Source: a virus
Taxonomy: Duplodnaviria > Caudoviricetes
Length of the DNA stretch: 64,000 nt
Virus record (IMG/VR): IMGVR_UViG_3300028410_000746
Strand: one strand, 5' to 3'
Part shown: in pieces, positions 22,880 through 55,279 of the stretch
Layout of the letters: every line of letters begins with the position of its first letter
Numbering within the stretch: the first letter of the stretch is position 1
Made by a program: the position numbers and the translations under genes
Notes under the pieces: model-generated
What the model was told of the DNA's origin: nothing
Seen by the model: the letters and a program-made list of their open reading frames with translations, nothing else
Databases searched by the model: none

Positions 22880-22970
22880 AGTGAATTAGAGAAGCCCCTA
22901 CGCCGACGGCTCAAGCACCTCCGCGATACATTCGCAAAGGTCGTCACAGAAGACCGGCCCCCCGTCCTGC

Positions 22971-23364
22971 GGGAACATCCCCACGTGCGTGGGGAAGGGA
23001 CCTGATGCCCGCGCGTCATGATCTCGGCCACGGGGACATCCCCGCGTGTGCGGGGAAGGGTCGTGTGCCCCCTTCGCGAAGGTCTTTCCGACGGGGACAT
23101 CCCCGCGTACACGGGGAGGGGCTAGCGGCCTCACCCGCGCCCGTTGAATGGACGGGAACATCCCCGCGTGTGCGGGGAGGGGCTCTAGGATACTATGATA
23201 CTTCTTTTCAAAGTGGGAACATCCCCGCGTGTGCGGGGAGGGGGTGCCTGCGGCTCCCGCGAGGCTGACGAAGCTGGGGACATCCCCGCGTACACGGGGA
23301 GGGGGACGGCTCGACCGGGACAGCCTCCGGGACCGGGGGACATCCCCGCGTACACGGGGAGGGG
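22971..23364 (-). CRISPR. Type I-E-like CRISPR array 1: 7 repeats of 29 nt, 6 spacers (31 nt leader-proximal, then five of 32 nt); no cas genes
   Basis: Repeats at 22971, 23032, 23093, 23154, 23215, 23276, 23336; minus-strand consensus CCCYTCCCCRYRYACGYGGGGATGTYCCC with the TCCCC..GGGGA hairpin; 61-bp period. Confidence 0.97.
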
Positions 23365-23504
23365 TCTGTGCCAAGAAGTCACATGAGCGGAATCACGTAA
23401 GTATTCGGTTTTCAAAGACTTTCAGAGTCCAGTGCCAAACAAGGTCACCCTTGGGCGACACTCTCGACGTCCTTATGGTAACCTTGAGGGTGGAGGCGTG
23501 TCAA
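23365..23504 (-). promoter_or_regulatory. Leader and sigma70-type promoter of array 1
   Basis: TTGACA (23504-23499), 18 nt, TACCAT (23480-23475); leader homologous to 42499-42638. Confidence 0.8.
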
Positions 23505-23518
23505 GAGAAATCCCAAGC

Positions 23519-23848
23519 TCACAGCTTCCGAAGAATCGTACGTGAGGTCGCGTCCCCCACGATGGTACAAAGATCAAGCCCGACCCTCCTGAACGACCTC
23601 TGGATCTCATCGTCTGTGATGTTTTCAGGGAGCTTCCAGTCCATCTGGTCCCACATCACCTTCGAGATTTGAGCGCCTAGAGGAGTCTCCAGATCCTCTT
23701 CGCTACGGATCAGGGCGAGGTCCCCCATGAGCAACTCCAGACCTTCCTTATCGGTCTGATCTCCTGATGCCGTGTACGCGTCGTAGATGCTGGCGGCGGC
23801 GCAGTAGATGGGGTCCGTATACGTGGCGTTGGCGTAAACGTAGGACAT
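23519..23848 (-). CDS. Hypothetical protein
   Basis: AGGAG RBS, start MSYVYAN, own promoter. Confidence 0.6.
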   Translation of the reverse strand: MSYVYANATYTDPIYCAAASIYDAYTASGDQTDKEGLELLMGDLALIRSEEDLETPLGAQISKVMWDQMDWKLPENITDDEIQRSFRRVGLDLCTIVGDATSRTILRKL

Positions 23849-23885
23849 GTCGTATCTCCTGTAGTGTCGGATTGTCTTGCACACT

Positions 23886-24152
23886 CTATATACCACAAGC
23901 ATGGTGGTTCGTAAAAGCCATCACGCGTTGGTAGGTCTTTTGAACCTCCTCCACAAGCCTTCGACAGTAGGCTCTCTCAAGGTCAGCGTCGCTAGCCTCT
24001 GGAGGAAGATCCAAGGTCTCGTCGGACCGCAAGGCGGCGAGGAGGAGCTGGCTCGAAGGATTCTGCCTAATGTAGTGCTGGTAGAAGTCTCCAGGGACGT
24101 CGTGACTCCTCAGAGCTGCCAAGGCCTTCTTGTAGTTTTCAGAATCGGCCAT
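23886..24152 (-). CDS. Hypothetical protein
   Basis: 88-aa ORF with GGAG RBS; its TAG lies inside the next promoter. Confidence 0.5.
   Translation of the reverse strand: MADSENYKKALAALRSHDVPGDFYQHYIRQNPSSQLLLAALRSDETLDLPPEASDADLERAYCRRLVEEVQKTYQRVMAFTNHHACGI
23887..23915 (-). promoter_or_regulatory. Conserved phage promoter, copy 1
   Basis: TTTACG-N17(ending TGTGG)-TATATA. Confidence 0.7.
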
Positions 24153-24176
24153 CCTATACTCCCAGTCGCAAGGGGC

Positions 24177-24488
24177 TCAGTTACCGGCACGAGCGATGCG
24201 CCTATGGGCGAACTCCCAGGTGGGGCGGGTCACCCGAGGCATGAGGTCCTTTGCGGCGGCGAAAAACGCCTCGAAGGCCTCTTGCCCGGAACAGTTCAAC
24301 TCTATGTCGTGGTCTTCCCACAGCTCTTCGATGATGCTCTCTCCGAACTCAGATTGGGACAGACCCTCGCCGGGGTCGAGTCGCCAGTCCGAGCACATGG
24401 CGCGGAGCCCAACGTTGGCACTCCGGTCGCTTCCTCGCACGCCGAATGCGTGCTGTATCTTCTGGATCAATTCGGCTTGGTGGTTCAT
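24177..24488 (-). CDS. Hypothetical protein
   Basis: GAGGAG RBS, start MNHQAEL. Confidence 0.6.
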   Translation of the reverse strand: MNHQAELIQKIQHAFGVRGSDRSANVGLRAMCSDWRLDPGEGLSQSEFGESIIEELWEDHDIELNCSGQEAFEAFFAAAKDLMPRVTRPTWEFAHRRIARAGN

Positions 24489-24527
24489 GAGGTCTCCTCT
24501 CGGGTCGGTGTGTTGTCTTACACACTC

Positions 24528-24556
24528 TATATACCACAAGAGAGGTGGGAGGTAAA
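24528..24556 (-). promoter_or_regulatory. Conserved phage promoter, copy 2
   Basis: TTTACC-N17(TGTGG)-TATATA. Confidence 0.7.
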
Positions 24557-24576
24557 AAGAATCTCCCCCCGGACGT

Positions 24577-24972
24577 TCAGGCCTTGCGCCGCTCCATGGC
24601 CAGAACAGCCTCACGGTCGATGCGCTCGGACTGGCGGGCCTTGAGGTAGGCACGAGCGCGGGTCACCACTGCGAGGGTCGGGTGCTTCTTGCACGCGAAG
24701 AACAGGACCTCCACGATCACCGGGTCTTCGAGTCGCACGGTGTCGCACGCGTCGAGGACCGTCTTGGAGAGCATGAGCGTCACCAGATCCTCATCCAGGA
24801 CCTGAGGATCAAGGACCGCGCGAAGGCACAGCATCACCAGCTCACGGGGGTCTCCCAGGGCGAACTGTATCGTCGCCTCCGAGAAGTTCAAGGCGTCGGG
24901 CTTGACCATGCTCGACATGACGTCATGCAGGCTATCAGGAGAGAGGGATGCTTTGGCTCGGAGTAGTGCCAT
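24577..24972 (-). CDS. Hypothetical protein
   Basis: 131-aa helical ORF, GAGGA RBS. Confidence 0.55.
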   Translation of the reverse strand: MALLRAKASLSPDSLHDVMSSMVKPDALNFSEATIQFALGDPRELVMLCLRAVLDPQVLDEDLVTLMLSKTVLDACDTVRLEDPVIVEVLFFACKKHPTLAVVTRARAYLKARQSERIDREAVLAMERRKA

Positions 24973-25001
24973 GGGTACTTCCTCTTACTTGATTTGGTAG
25001 G

Positions 25002-53963: not shown

Positions 53964-54022
53964 GTCTTAAGGCTCCAGTAGATCGAGGCACCCAGTGCGC
54001 CTCGGGTTCGTTAGAAAGAGAA

Positions 54023-54051
54023 TGGACACATCGCGACCTTGTGTCAAGGTC
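54023..54051 (-). promoter_or_regulatory. Promoter of the Pth2-like gene with an operator-like palindrome over -35
   Basis: TTGACA-N17-CATTCT; GACCTTG-ACA-CAAGGTC at 54035-54051. Confidence 0.6.
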
Positions 54052-54060
54052 TTTTCGCAG

Positions 54061-54246
54061 TCAAGCGATACGCTCGACCTCGAACTCATCGGAAGCCCCA
54101 CCACCAACGGTCACTCGATCGCCCGGTTTTTCCAGGCTCTCCAAGCTCTTGACATCGAAGTCGTCGTTGCTGGTGACCAGCTCGTTGACCGAGCCGGTCC
54201 AGATCAGGGTTCCGCTGTCGTAGAGATTCACATCGTAGTCCAACAT
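54061..54246 (-). CDS. Small acidic hypothetical protein
   Basis: AAGGAG RBS, own promoter. Confidence 0.6.
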   Translation of the reverse strand: MLDYDVNLYDSGTLIWTGSVNELVTSNDDFDVKSLESLEKPGDRVTVGGGASDEFEVERIA

Positions 54247-54279
54247 GGTCACGCTCCTTGTGCGTTAGGTTGCACGAGG

Positions 54280-54308
54280 TATGTACCACAAGGAGATTAG
54301 GCTGTAAA
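54280..54308 (-). promoter_or_regulatory. Conserved phage promoter, copy 10
   Basis: TTTACA-N17(TGTGG)-TACATA. Confidence 0.65.
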
Positions 54309-54322
54309 AGAAAACTACGAAG

Positions 54323-54395
54323 TGGACGATGCGAGGATCGAACTCGCTACCTCCGCTGTGCAAAAGCGGCGCTCTCCCAGATGAGCTAATCGCCC
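54323..54395 (-). tRNA. tRNA-Ala(UGC)
   Basis: Cloverleaf with loop TTTGCAC, G3:U70 pair, A73. Confidence 0.95.
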
Positions 54396-54451
54396 GGAAA
54401 CGGGAGGGGGGTTGCAAACGAGCCTCCGTAGAGGGCATCGCCTGCAACCCC

Positions 54452-54596
54452 GATATGAGCTGTACGAACAAGGGACTGGAAACGGAAGTTTAGCGTGCTA
54501 CCCATACACTACCCCCCGAAGGGGGCCGGGACTCGAACCCGGTCTGCCTCATTAACAGTGAGATAACCGTTTGCCATTCAGATCGTACAGAACATC
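54452..54596 (-). ncRNA. Y-RNA-like, circularly permuted tRNA mimic (Y2) retaining an Asn anticodon arm
   Basis: Outer stems CTGTACGA/TCGTACAG and TGG(C)AAACGG/CCGTTTCCA enclose TCTCA-CTGTTAA-TGAGG, T arm CCGGG-TTCGAGT-CCCGG, CCCCC-TTCG-GGGGG and D arm TAGTGTATGGGTAGCAC. Confidence 0.7.
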
Positions 54597-54608
54597 ACCC
54601 GTAAGGGT

Positions 54609-54742
54609 TGTGCGGTCAAGAGGTTAGAAGTGCTTATATATCAGATGCCTCTACCAGTTGGGCTACGTCGCTATAGGCGCGACGGCGGGGCTCGAACCCG
54701 CAACACTCCGATTCCGTTAAAGCTCTTCAAGCAGACCGCACA
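54609..54742 (-). ncRNA. YrlA-like Y RNA (Y1)
   Basis: Terminal stem TGTGCGGTC/GACCGCACA with Ro-site-like GGTC(T)G/TTGACC; ATCGGA/TCTGAT stem; T arm GCGGG-TTCGAGC-CCCGC; loop-closed acceptor CGTCGC/GCGACG; D arm TAGCCCAACTGGTAGAGGC. Confidence 0.75.
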
Positions 54743-54882
54743 TACGGACCGAGGGAGTCGAACCCTCGCGTTTAGACCTCGCCAGGAGTTTTTTAGTACC
54801 TTGGGGTCGCCCGTATCTCGTCTTTCCGAGATGTCACCGCAAGAATTTTGGTCTGAGTACCTACCAACCTTGCGGAATCCGT
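54743..54882 (-). ncRNA. tRNA-like RNA A with an insert of about 70 nt replacing the anticodon loop
   Basis: Acceptor ACGGATT/GGTCCGT+A, D-like TCCGCAAGGTTGGTAGGTAC, stem AGACC/GGTCT, T arm GAGGG-TTCGACT-CCCTC. Confidence 0.55.
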
Positions 54883-55279
54883 AGGTACCCCCCAGCGTCT
54901 GGTCTTGCTGGACCTCTCCAGGAGGTGCGAGGAACTCCCTGAGCATCCCGTCTCCCAACAACAATGGCAAGAGGGTTCCTCATCCTGGAGGGTGGTGTTT
55001 GAAGCTGGGTCAAGTTTGCGTAGCCAGGGTGCAAGCCACGTCTCTCAACGGGGCAAGTTTTGGATAACCCGAGCTACATCAGACCCAGCTTCAAGCTGGT
55101 CCGGCCGGAGCCGGTAGAAAGCTTCCCGGTCAAGGTAGCGTAGGAGGGTATCCCCCAGCCCAACCCAGACCCACTCTCGCAGGTAGGGCTCGACATGGGG
55201 GTTTCCAGTAACCCTGCCTACATCAGACCGGAAAGAGGTGTCGCAGATGCGGTGTGGTCGCGAAGGGAACGGAAGGGAA

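What the first reader, a model, noticed from the sequence alone, without database searches (positions are those of the whole stretch)
22891..55279. Trailer repeats are fused to headless ORF tails: possible capture by spacer-protospacer recombination
Seen: immediately past the last repeat, an open frame with no RBS or start runs to a stop at four loci. These are array 1 (QDGGPVFCDDLCECIAEVLEPSA*), array 3 (HEAFGEVFLTLQGRGIAQKGDTDSYDRIRAHMYRMWKELQTS*), solitary repeat 1 (RNGKPPVWTIKVTMPKSGK*) and solitary repeat 2 (about 75 codons to 55045). Known: phages can recombine with host CRISPR loci through spacer homology. Inference: the first 32 nt past each trailer was a host anti-phage spacer used as the crossover, deleting the gene 5' end and PAM, so escape and array capture happened in one step.
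Basis: inference. Interest (0 to 1): 0.62.

Follow-up and report, generated by a model that had tools for sequence, protein, structure and literature searches.

The report
Gene stubs behind phage CRISPR arrays
In a giant bacteriophage, two or three small CRISPR arrays end right against what look like leftover back ends of genes, but the arrays are old property of the phage family, so these are most likely rearrangement scars made inside the phage and not arrays stolen from the host.

Summary
Codon usage separates them. The array-3 tail is clearly gene-like (p 0.001 with a model trained on another phage), solitary repeat 1 moderately (0.019), array 1 marginally (0.061). The solitary-repeat-2 frame is not a gene: it crosses two structured non-coding RNA hairpins in the tRNA cluster. 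No intact parent gene was found, but the searches had low power. Host-array capture is not supported. A collinear 437-kb phage encodes Cascade-Cas3, carries 68 such repeats, shares both leader ends, and has repeats at two of the same sites. The window's repeat variant is absent from 185,579 prokaryote genomes. Two array-free relatives have no extra gene at the array-1 site. Best reading (40%): the phage's own array took a spacer from a nearby gene of itself or a sister phage, and spacer-protospacer crossover deleted the gene head and PAM. Plain deletion and chance remain live. Other notes of this scan report a cas operon in this genome (not checked here) and a similar stub in a bacterial array.

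The parts
22971..23364 (-). Array 1: 7 type I-E-like repeats, 6 spacers; last repeat intact
23365..23504 (-). Promoter and leader of array 1, about 90% identical to those of array 3; leader end shared with six leaders of relative G001
22898..22969 (-). Array-1 tail: 23 codons plus TAG, marginally coding-like; possible gene remnant
22877..22888 (-). Conserved promoter-like motif ahead of the 216-aa gene; similarity to array-free relatives resumes here
23519..23848 (-). Intact 109-aa gene upstream of array 1; its orthologue is the only gene at this site in two array-free relatives
42346..42498 (-). Array 3: 3 repeats, 2 spacers; last repeat matches the internal ones at 28 of 29 positions
42499..42638 (-). 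Promoter and leader of array 3, starting in the stop codon of the AlkB-like gene
42218..42346 (-). Array-3 tail: 42 codons plus TGA, clearly coding-like, no homologue found; best-supported gene remnant
   Evidence: called as a partial gene in L059
41979..42215 (-). Array 2 (2 repeats, 1 spacer) with a second leader type shared with five leaders of G001; followed by an RBS and an intact gene
43983..44055 (-). Solitary repeat 1 with its own promoter; syntenic with a 6-repeat array in G001
43921..43980 (-). Solitary-1 tail: 19 codons plus TAA, moderately coding-like
55280..55308 (-). Solitary repeat 2 in the tRNA cluster; G001 has several repeats in the same cluster
54998..55236 (-). Two related structured non-coding RNA hairpins (55236-55124 and 55095-54998) that the supposed solitary-2 ORF crosses; not a gene tail

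Best explanation
The repeats are satellite arrays of a type I-E system that this jumbo-phage lineage has long carried and copied around its genome as promoter-leader-repeat cassettes (shown by comparison with G001). At array 3, probably solitary 1 and perhaps array 1, the last repeat is joined to the back end of a small dispensable gene (statistical support only). Most likely route, all steps inferred: host Cas1-Cas2 put a sense-strand spacer from a nearby downstream gene of this phage or a co-infecting sister into the phage's own array; Cascade-Cas3 then threatened that DNA; a crossover between spacer and protospacer removed the older spacers, the old terminal repeat, the gene's head and its PAM; the array later regrew at the leader end (arrays 1 and 3) or stayed a single repeat (solitary 1). 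Solitary 2 is unrelated: a repeat among tRNA-cluster RNAs.
For: Coding signal in three tails and in none of 12 comparable G001 repeat ends at p<0.05. The frame picked from the first 33 nt stays coding-like downstream in all three. Last repeats are intact here, while 10 of 11 G001 arrays of three or more repeats end in a decayed repeat, most followed by an RBS and a whole gene. Syntenic intervals are much shorter than in G001: 674 vs 5,717 nt and 890 vs 2,267 nt. The last base of the repeat varies (T at solitary 1, G in L053), as expected for a PAM-derived base in type I-E (own knowledge). Leaders and promoter type are shared across the lineage. G001 has Cascade-Cas3 and no Cas1. Spacer-phage recombination by phage recombinases is known (Varble 2019, as summarised in 10.1101/2020.10.09.333658).
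Against: No intact parent gene was found, so the junction is not mapped and the PAM cannot be checked. Array 2 also has an intact last repeat yet leads to a whole gene, so intact trailers may be a trait of this phage. At the array-1 site two relatives have no gene that could have been cut. Shorter intervals could equally be gains in G001. One codon model puts the signal of arrays 1 and 3 mainly in the first 10 codons, and 19-32% of ordinary spacers score as well there. I did not confirm cas genes in this genome myself.
Confidence: 0.4

Rival explanations
1. Phage-internal deletion or cassette insertion without spacer homology. The ancestral layout was array, terminal repeat, RBS, gene, as in G001; a microhomology or illegitimate deletion, or the landing of a copied promoter-leader-repeat cassette, cut off the gene head.
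For: This layout is the rule in G001, including the array syntenic with solitary 1. These regions hold small, variable genes. Arrays 1 and 3 share one cassette.
Against: Such joints should fall anywhere in repeat or spacer; here three repeats are whole and the frame runs from the edge. The G001 gene behind the syntenic array is not similar to the solitary-1 tail.
Confidence: 0.25
2. No gene remnants: each tail is a last spacer from some phage gene followed by a decayed repeat and ordinary intergenic DNA, or (array 3) a tiny intact 36-aa gene from the GTG at 42328.
For: Lengths at chance; no homologues; against antisense DNA p is only 0.065-0.096; repeat-like stretches at offsets 17 (array 3) and 30 (array 1), p 0.05-0.08; G001 arrays often end in a 19-23-nt spacer and a decayed repeat. 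This reading is right for solitary 2.
Against: Array-3 tail p = 0.001 out of sample and 0.007 past nt 33; decayed-repeat scores are not significant and were found after the fact; RBS spacing at that GTG is 2 or 11 nt against 6-8 in real genes.
Confidence: 0.2
3. Cas1-Cas2 joined the end of a long phage DNA fragment to the repeat edge (half-site or oversized acquisition), and recombination downstream completed the genome.
For: Explains a whole repeat, an exact edge and a PAM-derived last base without an earlier spacer.
Against: No second repeat or duplication bounds any tail; no direct evidence; hard to tell from the best explanation by sequence alone.
Confidence: 0.08
4. One reading: each tail's first 32 nt was a host anti-phage spacer, and the crossover captured the host array while deleting the gene head and PAM.
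For: Same junction signature as the best explanation; the recombination is known in staphylococci; the true host may be unsequenced, and two captures from one host array would share a leader.
Against: Leader ends and promoter type shared with a distant relative that has 68 repeats and its own cas genes; repeats at syntenic sites; repeat variant and array-3 32-mer absent from 185,579 genomes; needs a second crossover at the same promoter each time; fails outright at solitary 2.
Confidence: 0.07

Closest known systems
CRISPR-Cas systems and compact arrays of huge phages (Al-Shayeb et al. 2020, PMC7162821)
   Same: Short arrays (median six repeats there; 2-9 here), no Cas1, some spacers against other phages (array-2 spacer matches a viral SNF2 helicase at 28/32).
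   Different: That paper's text does not mention type I-E; many arrays scattered over one genome; junctions to gene remnants are not described in the passages read.
Spacer-protospacer recombination between phage and CRISPR loci (Varble et al. 2019, Nat Microbiol 4:956; not held, read through 10.1101/2020.10.09.333658)
   Same: Crossover at a spacer gives array-phage junctions and depends on phage recombinases.
   Different: There the array is the host's and the result is transduction; here the arrays are inherited within the phage lineage, and the crossover is inferred, not shown.
Trailer-end decay and array collapse (Garrett 2021 review, PMC8047081)
   Same: Recombination between repeats deletes spacers and can leave one repeat; G001 trailers are decayed at the 3' end as described.
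   Different: The window's last repeats are whole and abut coding-like DNA.
Viral solitary repeat units and RNA anti-CRISPRs (Camara-Wilpert et al. 2023, PMC10651486) and viral mini-arrays (PMC11656645, PMC6858448)
   Same: Solitary 1 is one repeat just behind a promoter; array 2 is a one-spacer mini-array aimed at a phage gene.
   Different: The lineage has its own Cascade-Cas3; solitary 1 is syntenic with a full array, so it is more likely a collapsed array; no inhibition was tested.

Membership tests
Type I-E CRISPR array | About 29-nt repeat with a 7-bp hairpin and 32-33-nt spacers | tested here: met
Type I-E CRISPR array | Leader with promoter ahead of the first repeat | tested here: met
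   arrays 1-3; solitary 1 has the promoter only
Type I-E CRISPR array | Cognate Cascade and Cas3 in the same genome | tested here: inconclusive
   shown in collinear G001; for this genome only earlier notes; a Cas5 search returned nothing on the 373-kb contig
Spacer-protospacer recombination junction | Foreign gene sequence continues from the repeat edge | tested here: inconclusive
   codon signal p 0.001, 0.019, 0.061; absent at solitary 2; edge not mapped
Spacer-protospacer recombination junction | Intact parent gene in a relative, with a PAM at the junction | tested here: inconclusive
   none found; real gene ends of 19-23 aa and 42 aa are recovered in G001 only 3 and 10 times out of 31; no extra gene at the array-1 site in two relatives
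Captured host array | Same repeat, leader and spacer present in a host array | tested here: not met
   0 matches in 185,579 species genomes; host may be unsampled
Captured host array | Array absent from relatives, gained at this site | tested here: not met
   array or repeats at the solitary-1 and solitary-2 sites of G001, shared leader ends; absent at the array-1 and array-3 sites
Solitary repeat unit / RNA anti-CRISPR | One repeat behind a promoter | tested here: met
   solitary 1
Solitary repeat unit / RNA anti-CRISPR | Cas6 binding and inhibition of interference | not testable with these tools
   needs experiment

The most novel reading that the evidence does not exclude
A jumbo phage with its own Cascade-Cas3 repeatedly picks up spacers against its own or a sister's genes and escapes by spacer-protospacer crossover, so its satellite arrays act as programmable deletion points that prune accessory genes and restart as new arrays.
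Probability: 0.35. Interest if true: 0.55.

Novelty: new member of a known kind. Interest (0 to 1): 0.3.

Why it matters
Phage-borne CRISPR systems without Cas1-Cas2 must use host enzymes while phage DNA fills the cell, so they should often take self-spacers. How they survive that is open. If these junctions are spacer-protospacer crossovers, they are a fossil record of one escape route and show arrays shaping phage gene content. As it stands the evidence shows old phage arrays next to two or three probable gene stubs, which is a modest result.

Tried and rejected
Homologue searches for tails: 5.8-billion-protein search of the array-3 tail (longer proteins) and the solitary-2 ORF, nothing. HMMER over 1.84 billion representatives gave two hits for the array-3 tail, both sums of weak repeats with best domains of 5.8 and 13 bits, rejected. 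GenBank phages, IMG/VR, Pfam, PHROGs and ESM Atlas gave nothing. No tail matched G001 by protein or DNA; one DNA match of the array-1 tail to L010 (p 0.036, one of several tests) was not trusted. Tail as split-off end of the upstream 109-aa gene: rejected, that gene is full length. Decayed repeat inside the tails: not significant. Leaderless translation from the AUG left by Cas6 cleavage: in frame at only 2 of 4 sites, rejected as chance. Amber read-through: stop usage is ordinary. No spacer or tail 32-mer targets the window or G001. No whole genome was held; I did not walk the 373-kb metagenome record because a session may hold at most 40,000 bases of one. Varble 2019 was not held.
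Full report
Setting. The window is part of a jumbo phage with all genes on the minus strand. Identical proteins lie on a 373,477-bp contig. It is collinear over its whole length with a complete 437-kb IMG/VR phage, G001, at about 65-73% DNA identity. No whole genome was held for the window.

Observation. Fourteen 29-nt type I-E-like repeats form arrays 1, 2 and 3 and two solitary repeats. The four peptides exist as quoted. Some frame always runs to a stop, and the lengths are at or below chance (median longest frame 56 codons), so length is no evidence. 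I tested codon usage four ways. Corrected for choosing among three frames, p is 0.045, 0.027 and 0.021 against a Markov null and 0.096, 0.073 and 0.065 against antisense DNA. With a model from non-structural genes, the frame chosen from the first 33 nt stays coding-like beyond them (p 0.060, 0.007, 0.010), although the model from long genes puts most of the signal of arrays 1 and 3 in the first 10 codons. A model trained only on G001 gives 0.061, 0.001, 0.019 and 0.68. So array 3 is a probable gene remnant, solitary 1 a likely one, array 1 uncertain.

Solitary 2 is not a gene tail. It lies in the tRNA cluster.

No parent gene. Searches of 5.8 billion proteins, 1.84 billion representatives, GenBank phages, IMG/VR, Pfam, PHROGs and the ESM Atlas found no credible homologue. 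Power is low: C-terminal pieces of 31 real window genes find G001 matches only 3 times at 19-23 aa and 10 times at 42 aa. The site test is more telling at array 1: in G001 and in L010 (77% identical flank protein) the orthologue of the 109-aa gene 23848-23519 is followed directly by the conserved promoter motif, with no array and no extra gene. At array 3 and solitary 1 the G001 intervals hold more genes (5,717 vs 674 nt; 2,267 vs 890 nt), none similar to the tails.

The arrays belong to the phage lineage. G001 has 68 matching repeats in many short arrays and singles and encodes Cas3, Cas7, Cas6, Cas5 and a Cas8e-Cas11 fusion but no Cas1. It has a 6-repeat array right behind the orthologue of the 528-aa gene, where the window has solitary 1, and repeats among its tRNAs. 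The two leader-end motifs of the window occur in both phages, and only before repeats (8 of 8 and 6 of 6 matches); the array promoter type is shared too. Arrays 1 and 3 share one cassette at about 90%. The window's repeat variant and a wobble-tolerant form of the array-3 32-mer have no match in 185,579 species genomes, with the caveat that the host may be unsequenced. Earlier notes place a Cascade-Cas3 operon about 30 kb before the window and more copies of this leader in the same genome; I could not check these directly, and my Cas5 search returned no protein on that contig.

Mechanism. In G001, 10 of 11 longer arrays end in a decayed repeat, mostly joined to an RBS and a whole gene, and none of 12 other repeat ends has a coding-like headless frame. 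In the window three last repeats are whole and abut coding-like DNA in sense orientation. A phage array served by host Cas1-Cas2 during infection should often take phage DNA (inference); with Cascade-Cas3 in the genome that is harmful, and recombination that removes the PAM is an escape (known for host arrays). Steps shown: array ancestry, cassette duplication, coding bias. Steps inferred: self-spacer uptake, crossover, regrowth. I give this 0.40, plain deletion or cassette insertion 0.25, no remnant 0.20, oversized Cas1-Cas2 integration 0.08, host capture 0.07.

Comparison. The arrays fit the compact, Cas1-less CRISPR systems of huge phages (PMC7162821) and viral mini-arrays (PMC11656645); solitary 1 has the layout of a solitary repeat unit (PMC10651486) but is better read as a collapsed array (PMC8047081). 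Membership in 'captured host array' fails on two tested features. One full-text search for self-targeting recombination in phage-encoded systems returned a single, unrelated paper, which is a weak check.

Verdict. Observation partly confirmed, interpretation partly supported. New member of a known kind; interest 0.30. The self-spacer reading would deserve about 0.55 if an intact parent gene with a PAM at the junction were found.

Noticed in passing
G001 13.1-31.2 kb (L029, L030): Type I-E genes (Cas3, Cas7, Cas6, Cas5, Cas8e-Cas11 fusion, no Cas1) interleaved with about nine short arrays; most terminal repeats keep the hairpin and run straight into the RBS of the next gene, so Cas6 may process these mRNAs.
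   Followed up: partly
window:42008-42039 (minus): The array-2 spacer encodes a DEAH box and matches SNF2-like helicase genes of other viral contigs at 28 of 32 nt (L065, L066), which fits competition between phages.
   Followed up: yes
L053:756-965: Another sample (JGI 3300039191) has the array-3 leader with at least three different spacers, while the tail and array 2 are identical (L059). It may be a strain variant or a misassembly through the shared leader; L071 from the same sample has a chimeric end.
   Followed up: partly
window:54460-55874 and G001 123.5-127.8 kb: Repeated hairpin RNA scaffold with a shared short motif in the tRNA clusters of both phages, some copies holding tRNA-like halves; CRISPR repeats are interspersed among them.
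   Followed up: partly
window:51742-51814; G001 120038-120110: A CUA-anticodon tRNA at the same place in both phages although TAG is used as an ordinary stop (4 of 44 genes); in G001 a solitary repeat lies about 100 nt upstream.
   Followed up: no
window:23868-54292: At least nine copies of a conserved promoter-like motif head small standalone genes; the same motif heads more than 20 genes in G001.
   Followed up: partly
G001:405003-405110 (L049): Promoter, short leader, one repeat and a terminator about 35 nt later: a clean solitary repeat unit.
   Followed up: no
window:55325-55420 (minus): tRNA-Met-like cloverleaf just upstream of solitary 2 that ARAGORN and Rfam did not call.
   Followed up: partly
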